Source of the DNA: Eledone cirrhosa
Taxonomy: Eukaryota
DNA length: 64,000 bases
Assembly (NCBI GenBank): GCA_964016885.1
Contig: OZ024740.1
Location: 29,140,001-29,204,000 of the forward strand
Direction of reading: 5' to 3'
Below are positions 1 to 64,000 of this stretch, piece by piece (positions within the stretch are counted from its first letter, which is position 1; the number at the start of each line of letters is the position of its first letter). A program made the translations under genes and the position numbers. A model generated the notes under the pieces. The model was not told the DNA's origin, ran no database searches, and saw nothing but the letters and a program-made list of their open reading frames with translations.

Positions 1-2
1 TA

Positions 3-4112: not shown

Positions 4113-4145
4113 GGCAATGTAGGTAAATCCTATCGGCAATGTAGG
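4113..4145. repeat. 11-bp direct repeat GGCAATGTAGG (4113-4123 and 4135-4145)
   Basis: Read directly; the copies are 22 bp apart and span the putative LTR/PBS junction. Confidence 0.85.
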
Positions 4146-4157
4146 GAAAAAAATACA
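4127..4157 (-). promoter_or_regulatory. Putative 5' LTR 3'-end remnant (TGTATTTTTTTCCCTACA, 4157-4140) followed by a degenerate primer-binding site (TTGCCGATAGGAT, 4139-4127)
   Basis: An ...ACA terminus is directly followed by a motif resembling the TGGCGACGAGGAT-type PBS of Mag-like elements, ~40 bp upstream of the gag ATG. It lacks the canonical TGG, so the call is tentative. Confidence 0.5.
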
Positions 4158-4739
4158 CCAACAACACCAACAACACCAACAAAATCAACAACACCAACAG
4201 CAACATCCCAAACAACAACACCAACAACAACACCAACAACAACAACAACAACAACAACAACACCAACAACACCAACAACAACACCAGAAACACCAACTAC
4301 ACCAACACCAAAAACAGCAACAACACCAATAACACCAACAACACCAACAACACCAACACCAACAACACCAACAACAACACCAACAACAAAAACACCAACA
4401 ACACCAACAACACCAACAACAACACCAACAACACCAACAACACCAACAACATCACCAACAACAACACCAACAACACCAACAACACCAACAGCAACACCAA
4501 CAACACTAACAACACCAACAACACCAACAACAACAACACCAACAACACCAACAACAACAACAACAACACCAACAACACGAACAACACCAACACCAAAACC
4601 CCAACAACACCAACAACACAACAACACCAACACCAACATCCCAAACAACAACAACACCAACAACACCAACACCAACAACAACAACACCAACAACACCAAC
4701 AACAACAACACCAACAACACCAACAACACCAACACCAAC

Positions 4740-7700
4740 AACACCAACAATACCAACAATAACACCAACACGAACAACACCAACAACGCCAACAACACCA
4801 ACCATACCAACAACACCAACAACACCATCACCAACACCAACAACACCAACAACACCAACATCCCAAACAACAACAACACCAACAACACCAACCATACCAA
4901 CAACACCAACAACACCAACACCAACAACAACAACACCAACAACACCATCAACAACAACACCAACAACACCAACAACACCAACAACACCAACAACAACACC
5001 AGCACCAACAACAACACCAACAACAACAACACCAACAGCACCAACAAGAACACCAACACCAAAGACACAAACAACACCATCAACACCAACACCAACATCC
5101 CAAAAAACAACAACACCAACAACAACACCAACAACACCAACACCAACAACACCAACAACAGCACCAACAACAACAACACCAACAACACCAACAACACCAA
5201 TAAGACCAATAGCAACAACAACAACACCAACAACACCAACACCAACACCAACAACAACACCAACAACACCAACACCAACATCCCAAACAGCAACACCAAC
5301 AACAACACCAACAACAACAACACCAACAACACCAACAACACCAACAACAACACCAACACCAACAACACAAACAACACCAACAACACCAACAACACCAACA
5401 ACACCAACACCAACAACACCAACAACAACACCAACAACAACAACACCAACAACGCCAACAACACCAACAGCACCAACAACACCAACAACAACACCAACAT
5501 CACCAACACCAACAAGGCCAACAACACCAACAACACCAACACCAACATCCCAAACAACAACGACACCAACAACAACACCAACAACACCAACAACACCAAC
5601 ACCAACAACACCAACAAAAGCACCAACAACAACAACACCAACAAAACCAACAACACCAACAACACCAACAACAATAACAACAACACCAACAACACCAACA
5701 CCTACATCCCACACAACAACACCAACAACAACACCAACAACAACAACACCAACAACACAAATAACACCAACAACAACACCAACAACACCAACTACACAAA
5801 CACCAACAACACCAACAACACCAACAACACCAACAACACCAACACCAACATCCCAAACAACACCAACAACACTAACAACACCTACACCAACAACAACAAC
5901 AACACCAACAACACCAACAACAACAACAACAACAACACCAACAACACCAACATCCCAAACAACAACAACAACACCAACAACAACACCAATAACACCAACA
6001 CCAACAACAACACCAACAACAAAACCAACAACACCAACACTAACACCAACAACACCAACACCAACACCAACAACACCAACACCAACAACAACAAAACAAA
6101 CACCAACAACACCACCAACACCAACATCAACACCAACAAAAACAACACCAACAACACCAACACCAACGACACCAACAACACCACCAACAACAAAAACACC
6201 AACATCACCAACAACACCAACAACAACACCAACAAAACCAACAACAACAACAACAACAACACCAACAACACCAACATCCCAAACAACAACAACAACACCA
6301 ACAACAACACCAATAACACCAACACCAACAACAACACCAACAACAAAACCAACAACACCAACACTAACACCAACAACACCAACACCAACACCAACAACAC
6401 CAACACCAACAACAACAAAACAAACACCAACAACACCACCAACACCAACATCAACACCAACACAAACAACACCAACAACACCAACACCAACGACACCAAC
6501 AACACCACCAACAACAAAAACACCAACATCAACAACAACACCAACAACAACACCAACAACACCATCAACACCAAAAACACCACAACAACAACACCAACAA
6601 CACCAACAACACCAACAACAACACCAACAACACCAACAACACCAACAACACCAACACCAATAACCCCAACAACACCAACAACACCAACAACACCAACAAC
6701 AATAACAACAACACCAACAACACCAACACCAACATCCCACACAACAACAACTACACAAACAACAACACCAACACCAACAACACCAACAACACCAACAACA
6801 ACACCAACAACACCATCACCAACATCCCAAACAACAACACCAACAACAACACCAACAACAACAACACCAACAACAACAATAACACCAACAACAACACCAA
6901 CAACACCAACTACACCAACACTAACAACACCAACAACACCAACAACACCAACAACACCAACACCAACATCCCAAACAACACCAACAACACTAACAACACC
7001 AACACCAACAACAACATCAACACCAACAATACCAACAACAACAACAACGACAACAACACCAATAAAACCAACACCAACAACAACACCAACTACAACACCA
7101 ACAACACCAACAACACCAACACTAACACGAACAACACCAACACCAACACCAACAACACCAACACCAACAACAACAACACCAACACCAACAACACCACCAA
7201 CACCAACATCAACACCAACACAAACAACACCAACAACACTAACACCAACAACACCAACAACACCACCAACAACATAAACACCAACATCACCAACAACACC
7301 AACAACAACACCAACAACACCATCAACACCAAAAACACCACAACAACAACACCAACAACACCAACAACACCAACAACAACACCAACAAAACCAACAACAC
7401 CAACAACACCAACAACAATAACCCCAACAACACCAACAACACCAACAACACCAACACCAACAACACCAAAAATACCAACAATAACACCAACACGAACAAC
7501 ACCAACAACGCCAACAACACCAACCATACCAACAACACCAACAACACCATCACCAACACCAACAACACCAACAACACCAACATCCCAAACAACAACAACA
7601 CCAACAACACCAACCATACCAACAACAACAACAACACCAACAACACCAACCATACCAACAACACCAACAACACCAACACCAACAACAACAACACCAACAA

Positions 7701-10010
7701 CACCAACAACAACAACACCAGCACCAACAAGAACACCAACAACAACAACACCAACAGCACCAACAAGAACACCAACACCAAAGACACAAACAACACCATC
7801 AACACCAATACCAACATCCCAAAAAACAACAACACCAACAACAACACCAACAACACCAACACCAACAACACCAACAACAGCACCAACACCAACAACACCA
7901 ACAACACCAACAACACCAATAAGACCAATAGCAACAACAACAACACCAACAACACCAACACCAACACCAACAACAACACCAACAACACCAACACCAACAT
8001 CCCAAACAACAACACCAACAACAACACCAACTACAACAACACCAACAACACCAACAACACCAACAACAACACCAACACCAACAACACAAACAACACCAAC
8101 AACACCAACAACACCAACAACACCAACACCAACAACACCAACAACAACACCAACAACAACAACACCAACAACGCCAACAGCACCAACAGCACCAACAACA
8201 CCAACAACAACACCAACATCACCAACACCAACAAGGCCAACAACACCAACAACACCAACACCAACATCCCAAACAACAACGACACCAACAACAACACCAA
8301 CAACACCAACAACACCAACACCAACAACACCAACAAAAGCACCAACAACAACAACACCAACAAAACCAACAACACCAACAACACCAACAACAATAACAAC
8401 AACACCAACAACACCAACACCTACATCCCACACAACAACAACTACACAAACAACACCAACAACACCAACACCAACAACAACAACAACACCAACAACACCA
8501 ACATCCCAAACAACAACAACAACACCAACAACAACACCAATAACACCAACACCAACAACAACACCAACAACAAAACCAACAACACCAACACTAACACCAA
8601 CAACACCAACACCAACACCAACAACACCAACACCAACACCAACAACAACAAAACAAACACCAACAACACCACCAACACCAACATCAACACCAACAAAAAC
8701 AACACCAACAACACCAACACCAACGACACCAACAACACCACCAACAACAAAAACACCAACATCACCAACAACACCAACAACAACACCAACAAAACCAACA
8801 ACAACAACAACAACAACACCAACAACACCAACATCCCAGACAACAACAACAACACCAACAACAACACCAATAACACCAACACCAACAACAACACCAACAA
8901 CAAAACCAACAACACCAACACTAACACCAACAACACCAACACCAACAGCAACAACACCAACACCAACAACAACAAAACAAACACCAACAACACCACCAAC
9001 ACCAACATCAACACCAACACAAACAACACCAACAACACCAACACCAACGACACCAACAACACCACCAACAACAAAAACACCAACATCACCAACAACACCA
9101 ACAACAACACCAACAACACCATCAACACCAAAAACACCACAACAACAACACCAACAACACCAACAACACCAACAACAACACCAACAACACCAACAACACC
9201 AACAACACCAACACCAATAACCCCAACAACACCAACAACACCAACAACACCAACAACACCAACAACAATAACAACAACACCAACAACACCAACACCAACA
9301 TCCCACACAACAAGAACTACACAAACAACAACACCAACACCAACAACACCAACAACACCAACAACAACACCAACAACACCATCACCAACATCCCAAACAA
9401 CAACACCAACAACAACACCAACAACAACAAAACCAACAACAACAATAACACCAACAACAACACCAACAACACCAACTACACCAACACTAACAACACCAAC
9501 AACACCAACAACACCAACAACACCAACACCAACATCCCAAACAACACCAACAACACTAACAACACCAACACCAACAACAACAACAACACCAACAATACCA
9601 ACAACAACAACAACACCAATAAAACCAACACCAACAACAACACCAACAACAACACCAACAACACCAACAACACCAACACTAACACGAACAACACCAACAC
9701 CAACACCAACAACACCAACACCAACAACAACAACACCAACACCAACAACACCACCAACACCAACATCAACACCAACACAAACAACACCAACAACACTAAC
9801 ACCAACAACACCAACAACACCACCAACAACATAAACACCAACATCACCAACAACACCAACAACAACACCAACAACACCATCAACACCAAAAACACCACAA
9901 CAACAACACCAACAACACCAACAACACCAACAACAACACCAACAAAACCAACAACACCAACAACACCAACAACAATAACCCCAACAACACCAACAACACC
10001 AACAACACCA
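4740..10010. repeat. Higher-order tandem duplication, ~2.56-2.72 kb unit
   Basis: Rare markers recur in order: AAAGACACAAAC (~5061/~7780), AATAAGACCAATAGC (~5199/~7918), AACAAGGCC (~5511/~8230). ORF stops at 6565/9122 and 7323/9880 are both offset by 2557. Boundaries are approximate. Confidence 0.8.
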
Positions 10011-13000
10011 ACACCAACAACCCAAACATCAACAACACCAACAACACCAACACCAACAACACCAACAACAACACCAACAACACCAACACCAACAACACCA
10101 ACACCAACAACACTAATAACAACACCAACACCAACATCAACGACACCAACAACAACAACACCAACAACACCAACAACACCAACAACAACACCAACAACAC
10201 CAACAACACAAACAGCACCAACAACACCAACCACGACACCAACAACACCAACACCAACAACACCAACAACACCAACAACACCAACACCAACATCCAAAAC
10301 AACAATAACAACACCAACAACAACACCAACAACACCAACACCAACAACACCAACAACAGCACCAACAACAACAACACCAACAACACCAACAACACCAACA
10401 ACACCAACAACAACAACAACAACACCAACAACACAAACACCAACATCCCACACAACAACAACAACACCAACAACAACACCAACAACACCAACACCAACAA
10501 CACCAACAACAACACCAACAACACCAACAACACCAACAACAACACCAACAACACCAACACCAACATCCCAAACAACAACACCAACAACAACACCAACAAC
10601 AACAACACCAACAACACCAACAACACCAACAACAACACCAACACCAACAACACAAACAACACCAACAACACCAACAACACCAACAACACCAACAACACCA
10701 ACAACAACAACACCAACAACGCCAACAACACCAACAGCACCAACAACACCAACAACAACACCAACATCACCAACACCAACAACACCAACACCAACATCCC
10801 AAACAACAACGACACCAACAACAACACCAACAACACCAACAACACCAGCACCAACAACACCAACAAAAGCACCAACAACAACAACACCAACAAAACCAAC
10901 AACACCAACAACACCAACAACAATAACAACAACACCAACAACACCAACACTTACATCCCACACAACAACAACTACACAAACAACACCAACAACACCAACA
11001 CCAACAACACCAACAACAACAAAAACAACACCATCACCAACATCCCAAACAACAACACCAACAACAACACCAACAACAACAACACCAACAACACCAATAA
11101 CACCAACAACAACACCAACAACACCAACTACACAAACACCAACAACACCAACAACACCAACAACACCAACACCAACATCCCAAACAACACCAACAACACT
11201 AACAACACCTACACCAACAACAACAACAACACCAACAACACCAACAACAACAACAACAACAACACCAACAACACCAACATCCCAAACAACAACAACAACA
11301 CCAACAACAACACCAATAACACCAACACCAACAACAACACCAACAACAAAACCAACAACACCAACACTAACACCAACAACACCAACACCAACAACACCAA
11401 CACCAACAACAACAAAACAAACACCAACAACACCACCAACACCAACATCAACACCAACACAAACAACACCAACAACACCAACACCAACGACACCAACAAC
11501 ACCACCAACAACAAAAACACCAACATCACCAACAACACCAACAACAACACCAACAACACCATCAACACCAAAAACACCACAACAACAACACCAACAACAC
11601 CAACAACACCAACAACAACACCAACAACACCAACAACACCAACAACACCAACACCAATAACCCCAACAACACCAACAACACCAACAACACCAACAACACC
11701 AACAACAATAACAACAACACCAACAACACCAACACCAACATCCCACACAACAACAACTACACAAACAACAACACCAACACCAACAACACCAACAACACCA
11801 ACAACAATACCAACAACACCATCACCAACATCCCAAACAACAACACCAACAACAACACCAACAACAACAACACCAACAACAACAATAACACCAACAACAA
11901 CACCAACAACACCAACTACACCAATACTAACAACACCAACAACACCAACAACACCAACACCAACAACACCAACAAAAGCACCAACAACAACAACACCAAC
12001 AAAACCAACAACACCAACAACACCAACAACAATAACAACAACACCAACAACACCAACACCTACATCCCACACAACAACAACTACACAAACAACACCAACA
12101 ACACCAACACCAACAACACCAACAACAACAAAAACAACACCATCACCAACATCCCAAACAACAACACCAACAACAACACCAACAACAACAACACCAACAA
12201 CACCAATAACACCAACAACAACACCAACAACACCAACTACACAAACACCAACAACACCAACAACACCAACAACACCAACAACACCAACACCAACATCCCA
12301 AACAACACCAACAACACTAACAACACCTACACCAACAACAACAACAACACCAACAACACCAACAACAACAACAACAACAACACCAACAACACCAACATCC
12401 CAAACAACAGCAACAACACCAACAACAACACCAATAACACCAACACCAACAACAACACCAACAACAAAACCAACAACACCAACACTAACACCAACAACAC
12501 CAACACCAACACCAACAACACCAACACCAACAACAACAAAACAAACACCAACAACACCACCAACACCAACATCAACACCAACACAAACAACACCAACAAC
12601 ACCAACACCAACGACACCAACAACACCACCAACAACAAAAACACCAACATCACCAACAACACCAACAACAACACCAACAACACCAACAACAACAACAACA
12701 ACACCAACAACACCAACATCCCAAACAACAACAACAACACCAACAACAACACCAATAACACCAACACCAACAACAACACCAACAACAAAACCAACAACAC
12801 CAACACTAACACCAACAACACCAACACCAACACCAACAATACCAACACCAACAACAACAATACAAACACCAACAACACCACCAACACCAACATCAACACC
12901 AACACAAACAACACCAACAACACCAACACCAACGACACCAACAACACCACCAACAACAAAAACACCAACATCACCAACAACACCAACAACAACAACACCA

Positions 13001-13962
13001 TCAACACCAAAAACACCACAACAACAACACCAACAACACCAACAACACCAACAACAACACCAACAACACCAACAACACCAACAACACCAACAACACCAAC
13101 ACCAATAACCCCAACAACACCAACAACACCAACAACACCAACAACACCAACAACAATAACAACAACACCAACAACACCAACACCAACATCCCACACAACA
13201 ACAACTACACAAACAACAACACCAACACCAACAACACCAACAACACCAACAACAACAACACCAACAACACCAACAACACCAACAACAACACCAACAACAC
13301 CAACAACACCAACAGCACCAGCAACACCAACCACGACACCAACAACACCAACACCAACAACACCAACAACACCAACAACACCAACAACACCAACACCAAC
13401 ATCCAAAACAACAATAACACCAACAACAACACCAACAACACCAACACCAACAACACCAACAACAGCACCAACAACAACAACACCAGCAACACCAACAACA
13501 CCAACAACACCAACAACAACAACAACAACACCAACAACTCAAACACCAACATCCCACACAACAACAACAACACCAACAACAACACCAACAACACCAACAC
13601 CAACAACACCAACAACAACACCAACAACACCAACAACACCAACAACAACACCAACAACACCAACACCAACATCCCAAACAACAACACCAACAACAACACC
13701 AACAACAACAACACCAACAACACCAACAACACCAACAACAACACCAACACCAACAACACAAACAACACCAACAACACCAACAACACCAACAACACCAACA
13801 CCAACAACACCAACAACAACACCAACAACAACAACACCAACAACGCCAACAACACCAACAGCACCAACAACACCAACAACAACACCAACATCACCAACAC
13901 CAACAAGGCCAACAACAACAACAACACCACACCAACATCCCAAACAACAACGACACCAACAA

Positions 13963-16900
13963 AACACCAACAACACCAACAACACCAACACCAACAACAC
14001 CAACAAAAGCACCAACAACAACAACACCAACAAAACCAACAACACCAACAACACCAACAACAATAACAACAACACCAACAACACCAACACCTACATCCCA
14101 CACAACAACAACTCCACAAACAACACGAACAACACCAACACCAACAACACCAACAACAACAAAAACAACACCATCACCAACATCCCAAACAACAACACCA
14201 ACAACAACACCAACAACAACAACACCAACAACACCAATAACACCAACAACAACACCAACAACACCAACTACACAAACACCAACAACACCAACAACACCAA
14301 CAACACCAACAACACCAACACCAACATCCCTAACAACACCAACAACACTAACAACACCTACACCAACAACAACAATAACACCAACAACACCAACAACAAC
14401 AACAACAACAACACCAACAACACCAACATCCCAAACAACAACAACAACACCAACAACAACACCAATAACACCAACACCAACAACAGCACCAACAACAAAA
14501 CCAACAACACCAACACTAACACCAACAACACCAACACCAACACCAACATCCCAAACAACACCAACAACACTAACAACACCAACACCAACAACAACAACAA
14601 CACCAACAATACCAACAACAACAACAACGACAACAACACCAATAAAACCAACACCAACAACAACACCAACAACAACACCAACAACACCAACAACACCAAC
14701 ACTAACACGAACAACACCAACACCAACACCAACAACACCAACACCAACAACAACAACACCAACACCAACAACACCACCAACACCAACATCAACACCAACA
14801 CAAACAACACCAACAACACTAACACCAACAACACCAACAACACCACCAACAACATAAACACCAACATCACCAACAACAACAACACCAACAACACCATCAA
14901 CACCAAAAACACCAACAACAATAACCCCAACAACACCAACAACACCAACAACACCAACACCAACAACCCAAACATCAACAACACCAACAACACCAACACC
15001 AACAACACCAACAACAACACCAACAACACCAACACCAACAACACCAACACCAACAACACTAATAACAACACCAACACCAACATCAACAACACCAACAACA
15101 ACAACACCAACAACACCAACAACACCAACAACAACACCAACAACACCAACAACACCAACAGCACCAGCAACACCAACCACGACACCAACAACACCAACAC
15201 CAACAACACCAACAACACCAACAACACCAACAACACCAACACCAACATCCAAAACAACAATAACAACACCAACAACAACACCAACAACACCAACACCAAC
15301 AACACCAACAACAGCACCAACAACAACAACACCAGCAACACCAACAACACCAACAACACCAACAACAACAACAACAACACCAACAACACAAACACCAACA
15401 TCCCACACAACAACAACAACACCAACAACAACACCAACAACACCAACACCAACAACACCAACAACAACACCAACAACACCAACAACACCAACAACAACAC
15501 CAACAACACCAACACCAACATCCCAAACAACAACACCAACAACAACACCAACAACAACAACACCAACAACACCAACAACACCAACAACAACACCAATACC
15601 AACAACACAAACAACACCAACAACACCAACAACACCAACAACACCAACACCAACAACACCAACAACAACACCAACAACAACAACACCAACAACGCCAACA
15701 ACACCAACAGCACCAACAACACCAACAACAACACCAACATCACCAACACCAACAAGGCCAACAACACCAACAACACCACACCAACATCCCAAACAACAAC
15801 GACACCAACAACAACACCAACAACACCAACAACACCAACACCAACAACACCAACAAAAGCACCAACAACAACAACACCAACAAAACCAACAACACCAACA
15901 ACACCAACAACAATAACAACAACACCAACAACACCAACACCTACATCCCACACAACAACAACTACACAAACAACACGAACAACACCAACACCAACAACAC
16001 CAACAACAACAAAAACAACACCATCACCAACATCCCAAACAACAACACCAACAACAACACCAACAACAACAACACCAACAACACCAATAACACCAACAAC
16101 AACACCAACAACACCAACTACACAAACACCAACAACACCAACAACACCAACAACACCAACAACACCAACACCAACATCCCTAACAACACCAACAACACTA
16201 ACAACACCTACACCAACAACAACAATAACACCAACAACACCAACAACAACAACAACAACAACACCAACAACACCAACATCCCAAACAACAACAACAACAC
16301 CAACAACAACACCAATAACACCAACACCAACAACAGCACCAACAACAAAACCAACAACACCAACACTAACACCAACAACACCAACACCAACACCAACATC
16401 CCAAACAACACCAACAACACTAACAACACCAACACCAACAACAACAACAACACCAACAATACCAACAACAACAACAACGACAACAACACCAATAAAACCA
16501 ACACCAACAACAACACCAACAACAACACCAACAACACCAACAACACCAACACTAACACGAACAACACCAACACCAACACCAACAACACCAACACCAACAA
16601 CAACAACACCAACACCAACAACACCACCAACACCAACATCAACACCAACACAAACAACACCAACAACACTAACACCAACAACACCAACAACACCACCAAC
16701 AACATAAACACCAACATCACCAACAACAACAACACCAACAACACCATCAACACCAAAAACACCAACAACAATAACCCCAACAACACCAACAACACCAACA
16801 ACACCAACACCAACAACCCAAACATCAACAACACCAACAACACCAACACCAACAACACCAACAACAACACCAACAACACCAACACCAACAACACCAACAC

Positions 16901-18248
16901 CAACAACACTAATAACAACACCAACACCAACATCAACAACACCAACAACAACAACACCAACAACACCAACAACACCAACAACAACACCAACAACACCAAC
17001 AACACCAACAGCACCAGCAACACCAACCACGACACCAACAACACCAACACCAACAACACCAACAACACCAACAACACCAACAACACCAACACCAACATCC
17101 AAAACAACAATAACAACACCAACAACAACACCAACAACACCAACACCAACAACACCAACAACAGCACCAACAACAACAACACCAGCAACACCAACAACAC
17201 CAACAACACCAACAACAACAACAACAACACCAACAACACAAACACCAACATCCCACACAACAACAACAACACCAACAACAACACCAACAACACCAACACC
17301 AACAACACCAACAACAACACCAACAACACCAACAACACCAACAACAACACCAACAACACCAACACCAACATCCCAAACAACAACACCAACAACAACACCA
17401 ACAACAACAACACCAACAACACCAACAACACCAACAACAACACCAACACCAACAACACAAACAACACCAACAACACCAACAACACCAACAACACCAACAC
17501 CAACAACACCAACAACAACACCAACAACAACAACACCAACAACGCCAACAACACCAACAGCACCAACAACACCAACAACAACACCAACATCACCAACACC
17601 AACAAGGCCAACAACACCAACAACACCACACCAACATCCCAAACAACAACGACACCAACAACAACACCAACAACACCAACAACACCAACACCAACAACAC
17701 CAACAAAAGCACCAACAACAACAACACCAACAAAACCAACAACACCAACAACACCAACAACAATAACAACAACACCAACAACACCAACACCTACATCCCA
17801 CACAACAACAACTACACAAACAACACCAACAACACCAACACCAACAACACCAACAACAACAAAAACAACACCATCACCAACATCCCAAACAACAACACCA
17901 ACAACAACACCAACAACAACAACACCAACAACACCAATAACACCAACAACAACACCAACAACACCAACTACACAAACACCAACAACACCAACAACACCAA
18001 CAACACCAACAACACCAACACCAACATCCCAAACAACACCAACAACACTAACAACACCTACACCAACAACAACAACAACACCAACAACACCAACAACAAC
18101 AACAACAACAACACCAACAACACCAACATCCCAAACAACAACAACAACACCAACAACAACACCAATAACACCAACACCAACAACAACACCAACAACAAAA
18201 CCAACAACACCAACACTAACACCAACAACACCAACACCAACACCAACA
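13963..18248. repeat. Higher-order tandem repeat, 1850-bp period, ~2.3 near-identical copies
   Basis: ORFs 15740..15940 and 17590..17790 are identical, and 15083..15610 and 16933..17460 differ by one residue; both pairs are offset by 1850. The ATCCCTAAC marker is at ~14326 and ~16176. Confidence 0.92.
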
Positions 18249-23380: not shown

Positions 23381-23415
<35 letters not shown>

Positions 23416-26772: not shown

Positions 26773-26810
<38 letters not shown>

Positions 26811-29506: not shown

Positions 29507-29538
<32 letters not shown>

Positions 29539-48900: not shown

Positions 48901-51900
48901 AAAACCAACAACACCAACAACACCAACAGCAACAACAACAACAACACGAACAACACCAACACCAACAACACCACCAACACCAACAACAACACCAACACCA
49001 ACAACACCAACAACACCAACACCAACAACAACAACAATAACAACAACCAACAACACCAACAACACCAACAACACCAACAACAACAACAACAGCAACACCA
49101 ACAACACCAACAACACCAACAACACCAACAACAACACCAACAACACCAACAACACCAACAAAACCAACAACACCAACAACAACAGCAAAAACAACAACAC
49201 CAACAACACCAACAACACCAACACCAACAACCCCAACAACACCAACAACACCAGCAACAACACCAACAAGAACAACATCAGCAACACCAACAACACCAAC
49301 AACACCAACAACACCAACAACAACACCAACACCAACACCAACAACACCAACAACAACACCAACAACAACAACAACACCAACAACACCAACAACATCAACA
49401 ACACCAACAACAACACCAACACCAACAACAACACCAACACCAACAACACCAACAACACCAACACCAACAACACCAACAACAACACCAACAACACCAACAC
49501 CAACAACACCAACAACAACACCAACAACACCAACAACACCAACAACAACACCAACAACAACAACACCAACAACACCAACAACACCAACAAACCAACAACA
49601 CCAACACCAACACCAACACCAACAACAACACCAACACCAACAACACCAACAACACAAACACCAACAACAACAACAACAACACCAACAACACCAGCACCAA
49701 CAACACCAACAATAACCCCTACAACACCAACAACACCAACAACAACACCAACAACAACAACACCAACAACACCAACAACACCAACAACACCAACAACAAC
49801 ACCAACAACAACAACAGCACCAACAACACCAACAACAACACCAACAACACCAACACCAACATCCCAAACAACAACAACAACACCAACAACACCAACCACA
49901 ACAACACCAACAACAGCACCAACAACAACAACACCAGCAACACCAACAACAACAACACCAACAGCACAAACAACACCAACAACAACAACACCAACAACAC
50001 CAACAACACCAACAACAACACCAACAACACCAACAACAACAACAGCACCAACAACACTAACAACAACACCAACAACACCAACACCAACAACACCAACAAC
50101 ACCAACACCAACATCCCAAACAACAACAACAACACCAACAACACCAACCACAACAACACCAACAACAGCACCAACAACAACAACACCAGCAACACCAACA
50201 ACACCAACAACACCAACAACAACACCATCAACAACACCAACAACACCAACAATACCAACACCAACAACACTAACAACACCAACAACACCAACACCAACAT
50301 CCCAAACAACAACACCAACAACAACACCAACAACAACAACACCGACAACACCAACAACACCAACAACAACACCAACACCACCAACTACACCAACACCAAC
50401 AACACCAACAACAACAACACCAACAGCACCAACAATACCAACAACAACAACACCAACAACATCAACAACACCAACAGCACCAACAACACCAACAACACCA
50501 ACACCAACAACAACACCAACAACAACAACACCAACAACACCAACAACACCAACAACAACACCAACACCACTAACTACACCAACACCAACAACACCAACAA
50601 CACCAACACCAACATCCCAAACAACAATAACAACACCAACAACAACACCAACAACACCAACATCAACAACAACACCAACAACAACACCAACAACACCACC
50701 ACCAACAACACCAACACCAACAACAACACCAACACCAACAACACCAACAACAACGCCAACACCAACAACACCAACACCAACAACACCAATAACAACACCA
50801 ACAACAAAAACACCAACAACACCGAAAACACCAACAACAACACCAACAACACCAACAACACCAACATCACCTCCAACAACAACACCAACAACACCAACAA
50901 CACCAACAACAACACAAACACCAACACCAACAACAACAACAACAACAACACCAACAACACCAACAACACCAACAACACCAACAACAACACCAACAACAAC
51001 ACCAACAACACCAAGACCAACAACAACACCAACAACACCAACCTACACCATCATCCCAAATAACAACAACAACACCAACAACACCAACACCAACAACAAC
51101 ACCAACAACAACAACACCAACAACACAAACAACACCAACAACAACACCAAAAACACCAACACCAAAATCCCACACAACAACACCAACACCAACAACACCA
51201 ACAACACAAACACCAACAACACCAACAACAACACCAACAACAACAACACCAACAACACCAACAATACCAACAACAACACCAACAACACCAACACCAACAA
51301 CACCAACAACACCAACAACACCAACAACACCAACATCCCAAACAACAACAACAACACCAACAACACCAACACCAACAACAACACCAACAACATCAACAAG
51401 AACAACAACACCAACAACACCAACACCAACAACACCAACAACACCAACACATACACCAACAACAACAACACCAACAACACCAACAACACCAACACCAACA
51501 ACACCAACAACACCAACACCAACAACACCAACAACACCAACAACACCAACACCAACATCCCAAACAACAACAACAACACCAACAACAACACCAACATCCC
51601 AAACAACAACAACAACACCAACAACAACACCAACAACACCAACACCAACAACACCAACAACAACACCAACACCAACAACAACACCAACAACAACAACACC
51701 AGCAACACCAACAACACCAACAACACCAACAACAACACCAACAACAACACCAACAACACAAACAACACCAACACCAACAACACCAACACCAACAACAACA
51801 CCAACAACAACACCAACAACACCAACAACAACAACACCAACAACAACACCAACAACACCAACACCAACAACAACAACAACAACACCAACAATACCAACAC

Positions 51901-53407
51901 CAACAACACCAACAACAACAGCAACAACAACGACACCAACAACACCAACAACACCAACACCAACAACCCCAACAACACTAACAACAACACCAATATCTCC
52001 AACACCAACAACATGAACACCAACACCGACAACAACAACAAAAACACCAACAACACCAACAACACCAACAACAACACCAACAACACCAACACCAACATCT
52101 CACACAACAACAACAACACCAACGACCACACCAATAACACCAACACCAACAACACCAACAACAACACCAACAACACCAACACCAAAAACACCAACAACAA
52201 CACCAACAACACCAACAAGAACAAGAACACCAACAACACCAACACCAACAACACCAATAACAACCCCAACACCAACACCAACGACACCAACAACACCAAC
52301 ACCTACACCAACAACAACAACACCAACAACAAAAACACCAACAACACCAAAAACACCAACAACAACACCAACAACACCAATACGAACAACACCAGCAGCA
52401 ACACCAACACCAACACCAACAACACCAACAACAAGAACACCAACAACACCAACAATACCAACAACACCAACAACACCAATACGAACAACACCAACAGCAA
52501 CACCAACACCAACACCAACACCAACAACACCAACAACAACAACACCAACAACACCAACAACACCAACAACAACACCAACAACACCAACAACACCAACAGC
52601 ACCTACAATACCAACAACAACACCAACACCAGCAACACCAACAACACCAACAACACCAACAACACCAACAACACCAACATCCCAAACAACAACAACAACA
52701 CCAACAACACCAACACCAACAACAACACCAACAACAACAACACCAACAACACCAACAACACCAACAACACCAACAACAACACGAACAACACCAACACCAA
52801 CACCCCACACAACAACAACAACACCAACGACAACACCAACAACACCAACACCAACATCCCACACAACAACAGCAACACCAACGACAACACCAACAACACC
52901 AACACCAACAACACCAACAACAACACCAACAACACCAACACCAAAAACACCAACAACAACACCAACAACACCAACAACACCAACAACACCAACAACACCA
53001 ACACGAACAACACCAACAACAACACCAACAACAGCAACACCAACAACACCAACAATACCAACAACAACACCAACAACACCAACAACACCAACACCAACAA
53101 CGCCAACAACACCAACACCAACAACCCCAACAACACCAACAACACCAACAACACGAACAACACCAACACTAACAACACCAACAACACCAACAACACCAAC
53201 ACCAACATCCCAAACAACAACAACAACACCAACAACAACGCCAACACCAACAACACCAACACCAACAACACCAATAACAACAACAACAACAGAAACACCA
53301 ACAACACCGAAAACACCAACAACAACACCAACAACACCAACAACACCAACATCACCTCCAACAACAACACCAACAACACCAACAACACCAACAACGACAC
53401 AAACACC

Positions 53408-53438
<31 letters not shown>

Positions 53439-56400
53439 CCAACAACACCAACAACACCAACAACATCAACAACACCAACGACAACACCAACAACACCAAC
53501 ACCAACATCCCACACAACAACAACAACACCAACGACAACACCAACAACACCAACACCAACAACACCAACAACAACACCAACAACACCAACAACACCAACA
53601 ACACCAACAACACCAACACGAACAACACCAACAACAACACCAACAACAGCAACACCAACAACACCAACAATACCAACACCAACAACACCAACAGCACCAA
53701 CACCAACAACGCCAACAACACCAACACCAACAACCCCAACAACACCAACAACACCAACAACACCAACAACACCAACACTAACAACACCAACAACACCAAC
53801 AACACCAACACCAACATCCCAAACAACAACAACAACACCAACAACAACACCAACAAAACTAACACCAACAACAGCAACAACAACACCAACAACAACAACA
53901 CCAACAACACCAACAAGAACAACAACACCAACAACACCAACACCAACAACACCAACATCAACACCAACAACACCAACACCAACAACACCAACGACAACAC
54001 CAACACCAACAACAACACCAACAACAACAACAGCAGCAACACCAACAACAACACCAACAACACCAACAACACCTACAACACCAACAACACCAATATCACC
54101 AACAACACCAACAACAACACCAACAACACCAACAACACCAACACCAACAACACCAACACCAACAACACCAAAAACAGCACCAACAACAACACCAGCAACA
54201 CCAAAAACACCAACAACACCAACAACAACAACAACAAAACCAGCAACACCAACACCAATATCCCACACAACAACAACAACACCAATATCCAAAAAACAAC
54301 AACAACACCAACAACACCAACACCACAACACCAACAACAACACCAACAACACCAACAACACCAACAACAACATCAACAAAAACAAAACCAACAACACCAA
54401 CAACACCAACAACAACACCAACAACACCAACAACACCAACAACACCAACAACACCAACACCAACATCCCAAACAACAACACCAACAACAACACCAACAAC
54501 AACAACACCAACAACACCAACAACACCAACAGCAACACCAACACCACCAACTACGCCAACACCAACAACACCAACAACACCAACACCAACATCCCAAACA
54601 ACAACAACAACACCAACAACAACACCAACAACACCAACACCAACAGCAACACCAACAACAACACCAACAACACCAACACCAACAACACCAACACCAACAA
54701 CAACAACAACACCAACAACACCAACAACAACAGCAACAACAACGACACCAACAACACCAACAACACCAACACCAACACCGACAACACCAACAACAACACC
54801 AACAACACCAACACCAACATCCCACACAACAACAACAACACCAACGACCACACCAACAACACCAACACCAACAACACCAACAACAACACCAACAACACCA
54901 ACACCAAAAACACCAACAACAACACCAACAACACCAACAAGAACAACAACACCAACAACACCAACACCAACAACACCACCAACACCAACAACAACACCAA
55001 CACCAACAACATCAACAACACCAACACCAACAACACCAACAACTACACCAACAACAAAAACACCAACAACACCAACAACACCAACAACAACACCAACAAC
55101 ACCAACAACAACACCAACACCAACACCAACAACACCAACAGCACCTACAATACCAACAACAACACCAACACCAACAACACCAACAACACCAACAACACCA
55201 ACAACACCAAGAACACCAACAACACCAACAACACCAACAACAACACCAACAACAACACCAACAACACAAACAACACCAACACCAACAACACCAACAACAC
55301 CAACAACACCAACACCAACATCCCAAACAACAACACCAACAACAACACCAACAACACCAACAACAACAACACCAACAACAACACCAACAACACCAACACC
55401 AACAACAACAACAACAACACCAACAATACCAACACCAACAACACCAACAACAACAGCAACAACAACGACACCAACAACACCAACAACACCAACACCAACA
55501 ACCCCAACAACACTAACAACAACACCAATAACTCCAACACCAACAACATGAACACCAACACCGACAACAACAACAACAACACCAACAACACCAACAACAC
55601 CAACAACAACACCAACAACACCAACACCAACATCTCACACAACAACAGCAACACCAACGACCACGCCAACAACACCAACACCAACAACACCAACAACAAC
55701 ACCAACAACACCAACAACAAAAACACCAACAACAAGACCAACAACACCAACAAGAACAACAACACCAACAACACCAACACCAACAACACCAATAACAACC
55801 CCAACACCAACACCAACGACACCAACAACACCAACACCTACACCAACAACAACAACACCAACAACAAAAACAACAACAACACCAAAAAAACCAACAACAA
55901 CACCAACAACACCAATACGAACAACACCAGCAGCAACACCAACACCAACACCAACAACACCAACAACAAGAACACCAACAACACCAACAATACCAACAAC
56001 ACCAACAACACCAATACGAACAACACCAACAGCAACACCAACACCAACACCAACAACACCAACAACAACAACACCAACAACACCAACAACACCAACAACA
56101 ACACCAACAACACCAACAACACCAACAACACCAACATCCCAAACAAGAACAACAACACCAACAACACCAACACCAACAACAACACCAACAACAACAACAC
56201 CAACAACACCAACAACACCAATAACACCAACAACAACACCAACAACACCAACACCAACACCCCACACAACAACAACAACACCAACGACAACACCAACAAC
56301 ACCAACACCAACATCCCACACAACAACAACAACACCAACGACAACACCAACAACACCAACACCAACAACACCAACAACAACACCAACAACACCAACAACA

Positions 56401-57570
56401 CCAACACCAAAAACACCAACAACAACACCAACAACACCAACAACACCAACAACACCAACAACACCAACACGAACAACACGAACAACAACACCAACAACAG
56501 CAACACCAACAACACCAACAATACCAACAACAACACCAACAACACCAACAACACCAACACCAACAACGCCAACAACACCAACACCAACAACCCCAACAAC
56601 TCCAACAACACCAACAACACCAACAACACCAACACTAACAACACCAACAACACCAACAACACCAACACCAACATCCCAAACAACAACAAAAACACCAACA
56701 ACAACACCAACAAAACCAACACCAACAACAGCAACAACAACACCAACACCAACAACAACACCAACAACAACAACACCAACAACACCAACAAGAACAACAA
56801 CACCAACAACACCAACACCAACAACACCAACATCAACACCAACAACACCAACACCAACAACACCAACGACAACACCAACACCAACAACAACACCAACAAC
56901 AACAACACCAGCAACACCAACAACAACACCAACAACACCAACAACAACACCAACAACACCAACACCAACAGCAACACCAACAACAACACCAACAACACCA
57001 ACACCAACAACACCAACACCAACAACAACAACAACACCAACAACACCAACAACAACAGCAACAACAACGACACCAACAACACCAACAACACCAACACCAA
57101 CACCGACAACAACAACAACAACACCAACAACACCAACAACACCAACAACACCAACAACACCAACACCAACATCCCACACAACAACAACAACACCAACGAC
57201 CACACCAATAACACCAACACCAACAACACCAACAACAACACCAACAACACCAACACCAAAAACACCAACAACAACACCAACAACACCAACAAGAACAACA
57301 ACACCAACAACACCAACACCAACAACACCACCAACACCAACAACAACACAAACACCAACAACATCAACAACACCAACACCAACAACACCAACAACTACAC
57401 CAACAACAAAAACACCAACAACACCAACAACACCAACAACAACACCAACAACACCAACAACAACACCAACACCAACACCAACAACACCAACAACACCAAC
57501 AACACCAACACCAACACCAACAACACCAACACCAACAACACCACAACACCAACAACAACACCAACACCAA

Positions 57571-60500
57571 CAACAACACAAACACCAACAACACCAACAA
57601 CAACACCAACAACAACAACACCAACAACACCAACAACACCAACAACAACACCAACAACACCAACAACACCAACAGCACCAACAATACCAACAACAACACC
57701 AACAACACCAACACCAACAACACCAACAACACCAACAACACCAACAACACCAACATCCCAAACAACAACAACAACACCAACAACACCAACACCAACAACA
57801 ACACCAACAACATCAACAAGAACAACAACACCAACAACACCAACACCAACAACACCAATAACAAAACCAACACCAACACCAACAACACCAACAACACCAA
57901 CAACACCAACACCAACAACACCAACAACACCAACACCAACAACACCAACAACACCAACAACACCAACACCAACATCCCAAACAACAACAACAACACCAAC
58001 AACAACACCAACAACACCAACACCAACAAAACCAACAACAACACCAACACCAACAACAACACCAACAACAACAACACCAGCAACACCAACAACACCAACA
58101 ACACCAACAACAACACCAACAACAACACCAACAACACAAACAACACCAACACCAACAACACCAACAACACCAACAACACCAACACCAACATCCCAAACAA
58201 CAACACCAACAACAACACCAACAACACCAACAACAACAACACCAACAACAACACCAAGAACACCAACACCAACAACAACAACAACAACAACACCAACAAT
58301 ACCAACACCAACAACACCAACAACAACAGCAACAACAACGACACCAACAACACCAACAACACCAACACCAACAACCCCAACAACACTAACAACAACACCA
58401 ATCACTCCAACACCAACAACATGAACACCAACACCGACAACAACAACAACAACACCAACAACACCAACAACACCAACAACAACACCAACAACACCAACAT
58501 TAACATCCCACACAACAACAACAACACCAACGACCACACCGACAACACCAACACCAACAACACCAACAACAACACCAACAACACCAACACCAAAAACACC
58601 AACAACAACACCAACAACACCAACAAGAACAACAACACCAACAACACCAACACCAACAACACCAATAACAACCCCAACACCAACACCAACGACACCAACA
58701 ACACCAACACCTACACCAACAACAACAACACCAACAACAAAAACACCAACAACACCAAAAACACCAACAACAACACCAACAACACCAATACGAACAACAC
58801 CAGCAGCAACACCAACACCAACACCAACAACACCAACAACAAGAACACCAACAACACCAACAATACCAACAACACCAACAACACCAATACGAACAACACC
58901 AACAGCAACACCAACAACAACACCAACAACACCAACAACAACAACACCAACAACACCAACAACACCAACAACAACACCAACAACACCAACAACACCAACA
59001 GCACCTACAATACCAACAACAACACCAACACCAACAACACCAACAACACCGACAACACCAACAACACCAACAACACCAACAACAACACCAACAACAACAC
59101 CAACAACACAAACAACACCAACACCAACAACACCAACAACACCAACAACACCAACACCAACATCCCAAACAACAACACCAACAACAACACCAACAACACC
59201 AACAACAACAACACCAACAACAACACCAACAACACCAACACCAACAACAACAACAACAACACCAACAATACCAACACCAACAACACCAACAACAACAGCA
59301 ACAACAACGACACCAACAACACCAACAACACCAACACCAACAACCCCAACAACACTAACAACAACACCAATAACTCCAACATCGACAACATGAACACCAA
59401 CACCGACAACAACAACAACAACACCAACAACACCAACAACACCAACAACAACACCAACAACACCAACACCAACATCCCACACAACAACAACAACACCAAC
59501 GAACACACCAACAACACCAACACCAACAACACCAACAACAACACCAACAACACCAACACCAAAAACACCAACAACAACACCAACAACACCAACAAGAACA
59601 ACAACACCAACAACACCAACACCAACAACACCAACAACAACACCAACAACAACACCAACAACACAAACAACACCAACACCAACAACACCAACAACACCAA
59701 CACCAACATCCCAAACAACAACACCAACAACAACACCAACAACACCACCAACAACAACACGAACAACAACACCAACAACACCAACACCAACAACAACAAC
59801 AACAACACCAACAATACCAACACCAACAACACCAACAACAACAGCAACAACAACGACACCAACAACACCAACAACACCAACACCAACAACCCCAACAACA
59901 CTAACAACAACACCAATAACTCCAACACCAACAACATGAACACCGACAACAACAACAACAACACCAACAACACCAACAACACCAACAACAACACCAACAA
60001 CACGAACACCAACATCCCACACAACAACAACAACACCAACGACCACACCAACAACACCAACACCAACAACACCAACAACAACACCAACAACACCAACACC
60101 AAAAACACCAACAACAACACCAACAACACCAACAAGAACAACAACACCAACAACACCAACACCAACAACACCAATAACAACCCCAACACCAACACCAACG
60201 ACACCAACAACCCCAACACCAACACCAACGACACCAACAACACCAACACCTACACCAACAACAACAACACCAACAACAAAAACACCAACAACACCAAAAA
60301 CACCAACAACAACACCAACAACACCAATACGAACAACACCAGCAGCAACACCAACACCAACACCAACAACACCAACAACAAGAACACCAACAACACCAAC
60401 AATAACAACAACACCAACAACACCAATACGAACAACACCAACAGCAACACCAACACCAACACCAACAACACCAACAACAACAACACCAACAACACCAACA

Positions 60501-63500
60501 ACACCAACAACAACACCAACAACACCAACAACACCAACTGCACCTACAATACCAACAACAACACCAACACCAACAACACCAACAACACCAACAACACCAA
60601 CACCACCAACAACACCAACAACACCAACAACAACAACAACAACAACACCAACAACACAAACAACACCAACACCAACAACACCAACAACACCAACAACACC
60701 AACACCAACATCCCAAACAACAACACCAACAACAACACCAACAACACCAACAACAACAACACCAACAACAACACCAACAACACCAACACCAACAACAACA
60801 ACAACAACACCAACAATACCAACACCAACAACACCAACAACAACAGCAACAACAACGACACCAACAACACCAACAACACCAACACCAACAACCCCAACAA
60901 CACTAACAACAACACCAATAACTCCAACACCAACAACACCAACAACAACACCAACAACACCAACACCAACATCCCACACAACAACAACAACACCAACGAC
61001 CACACCAACAACACCAACACCAACAACACCAACAACAACACCAACAACACCAACACCAAAAACACCAACAACAACACCAACAACACCAACAAGAACAACA
61101 ACACCAACAACACCATCACCAACAACACCAATAACAACCCCAACACCAAGACCAACGACACCAACAACACCAACACCTACACCAACAACAACAACACCAA
61201 CAACAAGAACACCAACAACACCAACAATACCAACAACACCAACAACACCAATACGAACAACACCAACAGCAACACCAACACCAACACCAACAACACCAAC
61301 AACAACAACACCAACAACACCAACAACACCAACAACAACACCAACAACACCAACAACACCAACAGCACCTACTATACCAACAACAACACCAACACCAGCA
61401 ACACCAACAACACCAACAACACCAACAACACCAACAACACCAACATCCCAAACAACAACAACAACACCAACAACACCAACACCAACAACAACACCAACAA
61501 CAACAACACGAACAACACCAACAACACCAACAACACCAACAACAACACCAACAACACCAACACCAACACCCCACACAATAACAACAACACCAACGACAAC
61601 ACCAACAACACCAACACCAACATCCCACGCAACAACAACAACACCAACGACAACACCAACAACACCAACACCAACAACACCAACAACAACACCAACAACA
61701 CCAACACCAAAAACACCAACAACAACACCAACAACACCAACAACACCAACAACACCAACAACACCGACAACACCAACACGAACAACACCAAAAACAACAC
61801 CAACAACAGCAACACCAACAACACCAACAATACCAACAACAACACCAACAACACCAACAACACCAACACCAACAACGCCAACAACACCAACACCAACAAC
61901 CCCAACAACACCAACAACACCAACAACACCAACAACACCAACACTAACAACACCAACAACACCAACAACACCAACACCAACATCCCAAACAACAACAACA
62001 ACACCATCAACAACACCAACAAAACCAACACCAACAACAGCAACAACACCAACAACACCAACAATACCAACAACAACACCAACAACACCAACAACACCAA
62101 CACCAACAACAACACCAACAACAACAACACCAACAACACCAACAAGAACAACAACACCAACAACACCAACACTAACAACACCAACAACACAAACACCAAC
62201 AACACCAACAACAACACCAACAACAACAACACCAACAACACCAACAACACCAACAACAACACCAACAACACCAACAACACCAACAGCACCAACAATACCA
62301 ACAACAACACCAACAACACCAACACCAACAACACCAACAACACCAACAACACCAACAACACCAACATCCCAAACAACAACAACAACACCAACAACACCAA
62401 CACCAACAACAACACCAACAACATCAACAAGAACAACAACACCAACAACACCAACACCAACAACACCAATAACAAAACCAACACCAACACCAACAACACC
62501 AACAACACCAACAACACCAACACCAACAACACCAACAACACCAACACCAACAACACCAACAACACCAACAACACCAACACCAACATCCCAAACAACAACA
62601 ACAACACCAACAACAACACCAACAACACCAACACCAACAAAACCAACAACAACACCAACACCAACAACAACACCAACAACAACAACACCAGCAACACCAA
62701 CAACACCAACAACACCAACAACAACACCAACAACAACACCAACAACACAAACAACACCAACACCAACAACACCAACAACACCAACAACACCAACACCAAC
62801 ATCCCAAACAACAACACCAACAACAACACCAACAACACCAACAACAACAACACCAACAACAACACCAAGAACACCAACACCAACAACAACAACAACAACA
62901 ACACCAACAATACCAACACCAACAACACCAACAACAACAGCAACAACAACGACACCAACAACACCAACAACACCAACACCAACAACCCCAACAACACTAA
63001 CAACAACACCAATCACTCCAACACCAACAACATGAACACCAACACCGACAACAACAACAACAACACCAACAACACCAACAACACCAACAACAACACCAAC
63101 AACACCAACATTAACATCCCACACAACAACAACAACACCAACGACCACACCGACAACACCAACACCAACAACACCAACAACAACACCAACAACACCAACA
63201 CCAAAAACACCAACAACAACACCAACAACACCAACAAGAACAACAACACCAACAACACCAACACCAACAACACCAATAACAACCCCAACACCAACACCAA
63301 CGACACCAACAACACCAACACCTACACCAACAACAACAACACCAACAACAAAAACACCAACAACACCAAAAACACCAACAACAACACCAACAACACCAAT
63401 ACGAACAACACCAGCAGCAACACCAACACCAACACCAACAACACCAACAACAAGAACACCAACAACACCAACAATACCAACAACACCAACAACACCAATA

Positions 63501-64000
63501 CGAACAACACCAACAGCAACACCAACAACAACACCAACAACACCAACAACAACAACACCAACAACACCAACAACACCAACAACAACACCAACAACACCAA
63601 CAACACCAACAGCACCTACAATACCAACAACAACACCAACACCAACAACACCAACAACACCGACAACACCAACAACACCAACAACACCAACAACAACACC
63701 AACAACAACACCAACAACACAAACAACACCAACACCAACAACACCAACAACACCAACAACACCAACACCAACATCCCAAACAACAACACCAACAACAACA
63801 CCAACAACACCAACAACAACAACACCAACAACAACACCAACAACACCAACACCAACAACAACAACAACAACACCAACAATACCAACACCAACAACACCAA
63901 CAACAACAGCAACAACAACGACACCAACAACACCAACAACACCAACACCAACAACCCCAACAACACTAACAACAACACCAATAACTCCAACATCGACAAC
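57571..64000. repeat. 4611-bp-offset duplication (57571-59389 matches 62182-64000), second copy truncated by the window
   Basis: Four ORF pairs are identical at offset 4611 (57813/62424, 58402/63013, 58500/63111, 58711/63322). The window end ATCGACAAC matches 59381-59389. Confidence 0.92.
58421..64000 (+). other. Open Asn/Thr-repeat reading frame (~1860 codons, no stop within the window); coding status doubtful
   Basis: ATG at 58421 is in the AAC register, with in-frame ATGs at 59390, 59936 and 63032. There is no register shift from ~57545 to 64000, since the antisense ORFs are contiguous in frame. Similar ORFs at 52013 and 55548 end only after frameshifts. Confidence 0.15.

What the first reader, a model, noticed from the sequence alone, without database searches (positions are those of the whole stretch)
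4155..64000. A 60-kb+ satellite written in a two-triplet alphabet (AAC/ACC) with multi-level hierarchy
Seen: three nested levels of organisation. These are triplets forming ACC(AAC)n words, then modules of one to a few hundred bp punctuated by ATCCCA(A/C)AC, then 1.8-4.6 kb higher-order units. The array keeps one orientation with extreme strand asymmetry (A/C vs G/T). It is far longer than an ordinary microsatellite, yet pure AAC runs stay short (the longest I counted are 12 units, at 23381-23416 and 26774-26809). Established: nested higher-order repeats are typical of centromeric and heterochromatic satellites. Inference: a microsatellite has matured into a higher-order-repeat satellite, making it a candidate centromeric or heterochromatic domain, possibly undescribed in this host.
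Basis: partly seen in the sequence, partly recalled or inferred. Interest (0 to 1): 0.75.

Follow-up and report, generated by a model that had tools for sequence, protein, structure and literature searches.

The report
Single-site 68-kb AAC/ACC simple satellite
This is a real 68,000-base run of a nine-letter repeat found at one place in the satellite-packed end of a giant chromosome of a likely octopus; it likely grew by copying slips and local duplications, and it has neither the regular large unit nor the spread over many chromosomes expected of a centromere repeat, so it is probably ordinary non-coding DNA.

Summary
The array is real and longer than the window: 4155 to 71794 (67.6 kb), one orientation, 97% A+C. 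It is a degenerate 9-mer (ACC AAC AAC), not a free two-letter code, which explains the short AAC runs. The 1.8-4.7 kb units exist, but as 2-3-copy local duplications (about five looser copies at 20-34 kb); no period covers more than 3.7% of the array, so it is not a regular higher-order repeat. Its punctuation motif is private to this locus (23 of 23 genome hits), while ten other AAC/ACC arrays (1.4-33.6 kb) lack it and likely arose separately. It lies inside a 30-40 Mb satellite-rich zone at one end of a 443-Mb chromosome; the other end has a similar zone, which points to distal heterochromatin rather than a centromere. It is not one reading frame (92 phase shifts). Best reading: a neutral, locus-specific nested tandem repeat grown by slippage plus local duplication, like human simple-sequence and VNTR arrays already described. 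Earlier notes of this scan reached similar verdicts on other satellites of this genome. Raw-read support, chromatin state and CENP-A binding are untested.

The parts
4155..64000 (+). AAC/ACC simple-sequence array, degenerate 9-mer ACC AAC AAC; continues beyond the window to position 71794 (G000:C1:29,144,155-29,211,794; 67,640 bp)
4155..20100 (+). Domain A: patchwork of 0.4-0.8 kb blocks reused at many offsets, with the young 1850-bp duplication
   Evidence: 60-mer sharing matrix
13416..18185 (+). Young tandem duplication, period 1849-1850 bp, about 2.5 copies, 99.2-99.8% identical
20100..34100 (+). Domain B: about five loose copies of a 2.4-3.1 kb unit (next step 4.7 kb), mostly 2-5% apart; the closest thing to a higher-order unit in the array
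   Evidence: repeated phase-shift signature at 20418, 23152, 25594, 28645, 33394; edit distances
23381..23416 (+). (AAC)12, longest pure run
26774..26809 (+). (AAC)12, longest pure run
35220..39918 (+). Young tandem duplication, offsets 2538 and 2520 bp (an 18-bp slip between them), 99.9-100% identical, two copies
41655..51250 (+). Old core without close copies (best match 48-75 edits per 600 bp; shuffled control 69-83)
51250..64000 (+). Domain E (continues to about 69,000): few phase shifts; holds the young duplication 57571-66734, offsets 4611 and 4737 bp, 99.9% identical, two copies
1..4149 (-). Ty3/gypsy LTR retrotransposon copy that abuts the array; its 3' LTR lies 380-657 bases before the window, its 5' LTR is missing at the array junction
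   Evidence: Pfam RVT_1, RT_RNaseH, Integrase_H2C2, rve; comparison with two other copies; one full LTR hit in 264 kb
3313..3497 (+). Dispersed SINE-like repeat inserted in the retrotransposon's gag region (the label SINE is recalled, not from a call)
   Evidence: absent at this place from copies L002 and L003; 9 loci in 264 kb

Best explanation
This is a single-locus, non-coding 67.6-kb array of a degenerate nine-base repeat that likely grew in place, without a function of its own, by triplet slippage plus repeated local duplications of 0.1-5 kb, and was likely tolerated because it lies in a satellite-rich, apparently gene-poor chromosome end. Steps: (1) a short ACC AAC AAC tract acquired the multi-base variant ATCCCA(A/C)AC early (shown: the variant runs from 4205 to 71618 and is private to the locus; 'early' is inferred); (2) slippage adds or removes whole triplets (shown between near-identical copies), which keeps the alphabet and phase and keeps AAC runs short; (3) out-of-register homologous repair (unequal exchange or template switching; inferred, the pathway cannot be told from sequence) copies blocks next to or near themselves, giving domains and short-lived kilobase periods (the products are shown); (4) several foci have been active at different times, leaving an old core and old ends (shown as divergence); (5) a deletion at the left edge likely removed the 5' LTR of the neighbouring retrotransposon (inferred).
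For: Private punctuation: 23 of 23 genome matches of a 32-mer lie in this array; 0 of 10 other AAC/ACC arrays carry the motif; 0 matches in 1.0 Mb of other fetched DNA against 153 in the array. Slippage: 64 of 79 indels in 49 close window pairs are multiples of 3 (some pairs are reciprocal, so events are not all independent). Inherited copying: 71 of 92 phase shifts fall into 14 repeated context classes. Low copy, changing periods. Recurrent alphabet: ten other arrays, 7 of 10 with the same modal 9-mer, sharing only 0-10 of the 6,109 variant-bearing 30-mers and no flank beyond the common dispersed repeat and simple repeats. Context: satellite-rich zones at both ends of C1. No hairpin in 6 of 6 150-nt strands folded with DNA parameters, and a weak G-quadruplex score, so a hairpin-driven expansion is not needed. 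Precedent: human simple-sequence and locus-specific VNTR arrays of 10-100 kb with domains and irregular kilobase repeats (PMC2588610, passages); nested tandem repeats expanding hyper-locally (10.1101/2021.07.12.452052, passages).
Against: Neutrality is inferred from absence: no chromatin, expression or population data were seen. Domain B does hold about five loose 2.4-3.1 kb copies, a rudimentary higher-order unit. The neighbourhood is satellite-rich, so a structural role as bulk heterochromatin is open. Only 150 of 390 flanking open frames of 70 aa or more were scanned and shorter exons would be missed, so an intronic position is not excluded. 40 of 182 matches of the generic motif were not located, so larger sister arrays may exist. 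Separate origin of the sister arrays is likely, not proven: a short seed could have spread before variants arose.
Confidence: 0.8

Rival explanations
1. The array is the functional centromere core of this chromosome, or part of it.
For: Nested repeats and one orientation; no insertion of foreign sequence in 67.6 kb (largest gap between core words 30 bp; 0 SINE-like copies against 3.1 expected, weak because the flank copies cluster); satellite-rich surroundings.
Against: Single locus, 68 kb, private motif; no regular unit; youngest blocks are scattered and the middle is old, unlike the layered pattern described for human centromeres (10.1101/2021.07.12.452052 passages); a 19-bp satellite fills 5 of 5 samples over 28.08-28.53 Mb nearby; the opposite chromosome end is as satellite-rich (8 of 16 samples). 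In three karyotyped octopods over 73% of chromosomes are meta- or submetacentric, but O. vulgaris is mostly telocentric (PMC5646656 passages), so position alone does not settle it.
Confidence: 0.03
2. The array is selected as a structural heterochromatin element (a binding platform for a sequence-specific protein or a source of small RNA) within the distal satellite zone.
For: Lies in a 30-40 Mb multi-satellite zone; the same 9-mer has reached kilobase size at 11 or more loci.
Against: Neighbouring satellites have unrelated monomers of 18-156 bp; sister arrays also lie in chromosome interiors, e.g. C3 at 190 of 379 Mb; CpG density is 4.1 per kb against 21.5 in the flanks, so little substrate for CpG methylation.
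Confidence: 0.1
3. The array is a giant mucin-like exon (Thr/Pro-rich in the ACA CCA frame) or its recent pseudogene.
For: Open stretches of up to 3,179 codons; a sister array of 18.7 kb has no phase shift.
Against: 92 phase shifts, most of them inherited through duplications; open frames follow from the alphabet (two changes are needed to make a stop in these frames); the array is flanked by a retrotransposon on the left and TG/TA microsatellites on the right; the flanks of the seven sister arrays printed are mostly other simple or dispersed repeats.
Confidence: 0.03
4. Much of the length, above all the near-identical 1.85, 2.5 and 4.6 kb duplications or the left junction, is an assembly artefact.
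For: The youngest duplicates are 99.8-100% identical; the array abuts a truncated retrotransposon.
Against: Every 2,000-mer of the array is unique and 95% of 1,000-mers are, so long accurate reads can walk it; no N in 264 kb; the three young duplications add only about 10 of 68 kb.
Confidence: 0.04

Closest known systems
Human locus-specific VNTR and simple-sequence arrays over 10 kb (Warburton et al. 2008, PMC2588610; passages read)
   Same: Short unit, 10-100 kb array at one locus, internal domains, irregular kilobase repeats (e.g. the Xp22.33 61-bp VNTR with irregular 1.6 and 2.5 kb units; the 18-kb diverged CCTTG array).
   Different: Unit here is a 9-mer built of two triplets and keeps slipping by triplets; host is likely an octopod; length variation between individuals is untested.
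HSat2/HSat3 nested tandem repeats (Altemose et al., 10.1101/2021.07.12.452052; passages read)
   Same: Derived from a simple repeat, longer units of several kb without discrete equal monomers, periodicity that changes along the array.
   Different: HSat2/3 total tens of Mb over many chromosomes, with single arrays up to 27.6 Mb; this is 68 kb at one locus with 2-5 copies per unit; no sequence relation.
Primate alpha-satellite higher-order repeats (PMC8122249 and PMC2588610; passages read)
   Same: Larger blocks more alike than their constituent small units.
   Different: No integral set of equal monomers, no array-wide period, few copies; tested and not met.
Avian 'sequence stuttering' (Hron et al. 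2026, PMC12954441; abstract and first part of section 7 read)
   Same: Local, disorganised expansion of short sequence in repeat-dense chromosome regions.
   Different: Defined for introns of genes on dot chromosomes with blocks of tens to hundreds of bases; no host gene was found here.

Membership tests
Higher-order-repeat satellite (alpha-satellite type) | A block of a fixed number of similar-length monomers repeated in tandem with one period | tested here: not met
   Top lag covers 3.7% of positions; punctuation spacing 39-1,851 bp; offsets change along the array.
Higher-order-repeat satellite (alpha-satellite type) | Adjacent blocks 97-100% identical over many copies | tested here: not met
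   22 of 90 windows have any copy within 2%, at most 3 such copies; at most 6 copies within 5%.
Centromeric satellite | Abundant family, usually large arrays on several chromosomes | tested here: not met
   Private 32-mer: 23 of 23 hits at one 68-kb locus of a 3.0-Gb assembly; the assembly may under-represent satellites.
Centromeric satellite | CENP-A occupancy | not testable with these tools
Centromeric satellite | Layered expansion: youngest repeats central, older layers symmetric outside | tested here: not met
   Young blocks at 14-18, 35-40 and 57-67 kb; old core at 42-51 kb; old ends.
Nested tandem repeat / expanded simple-sequence array (HSat3-like organisation) | Derived from a short simple repeat | tested here: met
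   Period 9, 7,571 copies, 79% matches; 88.8% of triplets AAC or ACC.
Nested tandem repeat / expanded simple-sequence array (HSat3-like organisation) | Kilobase repeat units without discrete equal monomers, period varying locally | tested here: met
Locus-specific VNTR | Array variants confined to one locus | tested here: met
Locus-specific VNTR | Copy number varies between individuals | not testable with these tools
   No second haplotype or long reads of the species were available.
Constitutive heterochromatin (distal) | Satellite- and transposon-rich, gene-poor sequence context | tested here: inconclusive
   Satellite-rich met; all 19 Pfam-positive frames of 150 scanned are transposon-type, but 240 shorter frames and short exons were not scanned.
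Constitutive heterochromatin (distal) | H3K9me3/HP1 enrichment or C-band | not testable with these tools
   No chromatin or cytogenetic data.
Mucin-type PTS exon | One long uninterrupted reading frame with splice sites | tested here: not met
   92 phase shifts; 88 within the window.

The most novel reading that the evidence does not exclude
Both ends of this likely octopod giant chromosome are 30-40 Mb satellite nurseries in which almost any short sequence, even a hairpin-free AAC microsatellite, is pumped up to tens or hundreds of kilobases by local duplication; the ACC AAC AAC 9-mer is a mutational attractor that has made this transition independently at 11 or more loci, and this array, being fully resolvable, records the microsatellite-to-satellite transition step by step.
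Probability: 0.35. Interest if true: 0.4.

Novelty: new member of a known kind. Interest (0 to 1): 0.17.

Why it matters
As a locus it matters little: long simple-sequence arrays with domains and irregular kilobase repeats are known. Its use is as a readable record: slips, point changes and duplications can be ordered along 68 kb, and ten sister arrays of 1.4-33.6 kb offer a size series for testing how a microsatellite becomes a satellite without hairpins. The wider observation, two satellite-rich chromosome ends of 30-40 Mb with many unrelated monomers, is a more promising lead for cephalopod chromosome structure than this array.

Tried and rejected
Coding (mucin-like) reading: rejected on 92 phase shifts. 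Array inserted into the retrotransposon with the 5' LTR on the far side: no second full LTR in 264 kb. Shared mobile carrier for the sister arrays: flank comparison of 10 arrays (800 bp each side; the C3:358.5 Mb array left out) gave only the common dispersed repeat and simple repeats. Hairpin or strong G-quadruplex driver: folding energy 0.0 in 6 of 6 strands; score 0.63 on average by my own implementation of the G4Hunter rule, recalled. Mirror symmetry of the two ends: no clear signal, the left 700 bp shares 35 of 395 variant 36-mers with the last bin and 53-56 with bins at 20 and 28 kb. Telomere link: no tandem telomere hexamers in 264 kb. Read support: no RNA holder listed; no laid record bridged the left junction in 4 runs; the unique right flank had no cover in 4 contig sets; these runs hold under half of the query words and may be other species, so both tests are inconclusive. 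A genome search for a perfect seven-unit run of the neighbouring 19-bp satellite found 0 matches and says nothing on its spread. Earlier-findings look-ups by place 'near' and by sequence returned nothing. Literature searches (listings only) showed no description of an AAC/ACC array or of centromeric satellites in cephalopods; the O. vulgaris repeat annotation PMC13282606 (first third read, terms searched) has no occurrence of 'centromer' and one of 'satellite'; its supplements and repeat library were not read and could hold such a repeat.
Full report
Where it is. The window is G000:C1:29,140,001-29,204,000 in a 3.0-Gb assembly of 1,796 contigs; C1 is 442.9 Mb, C2 416.3, C3 378.9 and C24 30.7 Mb. 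The host is likely an octopod mollusc: the retrotransposon beside the array has its closest named relatives in Octopus bimaculoides (88% over 74% of the query) and the snail Batillaria (86% over 96%), and the dispersed SINE-like repeat resembles one I recall from octopus genomes (recalled, no call). Earlier AI notes say the same but are not independent.

The observation. Tandem Repeats Finder reports one period-9 array from 4155 to the window's end and, with the neighbouring DNA added, to 71794: 67,640 bp, 7,571 copies, 79% matches. A+C is 97.4%, there is no reversed 9-mer and no foreign insert (largest gap between core words 30 bp). The words are not a random mix: ACC next to ACC occurs 95 times against 1,327 expected, ACC(AAC)2 2,293 times against 640. 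The array is therefore a degenerate 9-mer with triplet slips, and short AAC runs need no further explanation.

The hierarchy. Internal repetition is real: 47.5% of 90-mers and 18.4% of 300-mers recur, against 0.03% and 0 in five word-shuffled controls. But it is not regular. ATCCCA(A/C)AC occurs 179 times at spacings of 39-1,851 bp. The kilobase units are three young duplications (offsets 1850; 2538/2520; 4611/4737; 99.8-100% identical; 2-2.5 copies) plus many dispersed 0.4-0.8 kb blocks, and about five loose 2.4-3.1 kb copies at 20-34 kb. The strongest lag holds 3.7% of positions; no 120-mer occurs more than 9 times. In an indel-tolerant test 18 of 90 600-bp windows have a copy within 1%, 22 within 2% and 49 within 5%; the stretch 41.6-51 kb and both ends are close to the shuffled baseline. 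A 60-mer sharing matrix shows domains at about 4-20, 20-34, 34-42, 42-50 and 50-69 kb.

How it changes. Between close copies 64 of 79 indels are multiples of three and 100 of 245 substitutions are A/C exchanges (49 window pairs, partly reciprocal). The 92 phase shifts fall into 35 context classes, 71 of them in 14 repeated classes, so most were copied along with their blocks; this rules out one reading frame and also random sequencing error as their main source. Neither strand folds (0.0 kcal/mol in 6 of 6 150-mers) and the G-quadruplex score is weak. The repair pathway behind the duplications is inferred, not shown.

One locus, common alphabet. A 32-mer with the punctuation has 23 matches in the genome, all in this array; the motif spans 4205-71618 and has 0 matches in 1.0 Mb of other fetched DNA. 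A multi-base variant present end to end and nowhere else implies one small founder. Generic AAC/ACC words occur elsewhere (14 and 182 matches). Of 11 other places fetched, 10 held arrays of 1.4-33.6 kb and one held none over 400 bp; none has the punctuation, 7 of 10 share the modal 9-mer, and they share 0-10 of the focal array's 6,109 variant 30-mers. The fetched arrays explain 142 of the 182 matches; 40 were not located. This array is the largest of the 11 seen, not shown to be the largest in the genome.

Surroundings. Left, the array abuts a Ty3/gypsy copy on the minus strand that is 96.5-97.8% identical to two other copies, which are 98.7% identical to each other; its 5' LTR is missing and no second full LTR lies within 264 kb, so a deletion at the junction is likely. 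Right, it ends in about 70 unique bases and TG/TA microsatellites. All 19 Pfam-positive frames among the 150 longest of 390 flanking open frames are transposon-type; the PHD hit lies in frame with a reverse transcriptase. Sampling 4-kb pieces along C1, those at least 80% tandem repeat number 27 of 47 at 0-30.6 Mb, 3 of 13 at 30.6-51 Mb, 0 of 14 at 51-400 Mb and 8 of 16 at 400-443 Mb, with unrelated monomers of 16-156 bp (samples were spaced by hand, denser near the locus, and three were added). The array thus sits near the inner margin of a distal satellite zone that has a twin at the other end, 0.4 Mb from much larger 19- and 32-bp blocks. That supports a heterochromatic setting and argues against a centromere reading of this array; the interior sampling is too sparse to find or exclude a mid-chromosome centromeric block.

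Is it an artefact? Every 2,000-mer is unique, 95% of 1,000-mers are, and there is no N in 264 kb, so the bulk is assemblable from long accurate reads. The read tests were inconclusive; the three youngest duplicates and the left junction remain unverified.

Comparison with what is known. It works like the human simple-sequence and VNTR arrays of 10-100 kb with domains and irregular kilobase repeats (PMC2588610, passages) and like HSat2/3 nested tandem repeats, a term proposed to separate such units from higher-order repeats (10.1101/2021.07.12.452052, passages). It fails the tested criteria of an alpha-satellite-type higher-order repeat (PMC8122249, passages) and of a centromeric family. Six literature searches (listings only; and supplied comparators) showed no description of this array, so it is a new member of a known kind; supplements of PMC13282606 were not read. 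Notes of this scan on other satellites of the same genome give the same picture of one-off duplications and name other, larger centromere candidates (unchecked).

Verdict. Real, single-locus, probably neutral nested simple-sequence array; interest 0.17. The boldest reading left open, chromosome ends acting as satellite nurseries with the 9-mer as a recurrent attractor, has about 35% odds and would deserve about 0.4.

Noticed in passing
G000:C1, 0-40 Mb and 400-443 Mb (L048-L143): Both ends of the 443-Mb chromosome are multi-satellite zones: 27 of 47 and 8 of 16 4-kb samples are almost pure tandem repeat, with many unrelated monomers, against 0 of 14 in the interior.
   Followed up: partly
G000:C1:28.08-28.75 Mb (L049-L053, L109, L110): A 19-bp satellite fills 5 of 5 samples over about 450 kb, followed by a 32-bp satellite in 2 of 2 samples; much larger than the array studied.
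   Followed up: partly
G000:C1:29,280,225-29,302,938 (L011-L013): 22.7-kb array of a 74-bp satellite; a 31-mer of it has 1,438 exact genome matches, 61 forward and 1,377 reverse, including arrays at C1 0.3 and 9.6 Mb.
   Followed up: partly
G000:C3:341,641,8xx-341,641,946 (end of L028): The 33.6-kb AAC/ACC array starts with a short inverted copy of itself on the other side of a (TA)n tract, like a fold-back at a TA cruciform.
   Followed up: no
G000:C3:190,148,443-190,167,098 (L024-L026): 18.7-kb AAC/ACC array without any phase shift, giving open frames of over 6,000 codons on both strands; flanks look non-coding, so likely a by-product of the alphabet.
   Followed up: partly
G000:C3:358,510,000-358,551,337 (L127-L129, L035, L043): A 12.7-kb AAC/ACC array directly abuts a C-poor array of about 28 kb (composition only), itself close to a block of uniform composition, probably another satellite.
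   Followed up: no
window 4111-4146 and other copies of the retrotransposon: The Ty3/gypsy family carries a 22-bp tandem repeat between LTR and gag whose copy number varies from about 2 to dozens between copies, a satellite seed inside the element.
   Followed up: no
G000:C1:29,222,423-29,234,176 (L005-L007): 11.7-kb TGG/GTT-rich complex microsatellite array of opposite strand bias, 10.6 kb right of the studied array.
   Followed up: no
G000:C2:163,654,9xx (L034) and C2:273,444,7xx (L037): Degenerate telomere-like hexamer tracts lie beside two of the sister AAC/ACC arrays.
   Followed up: no
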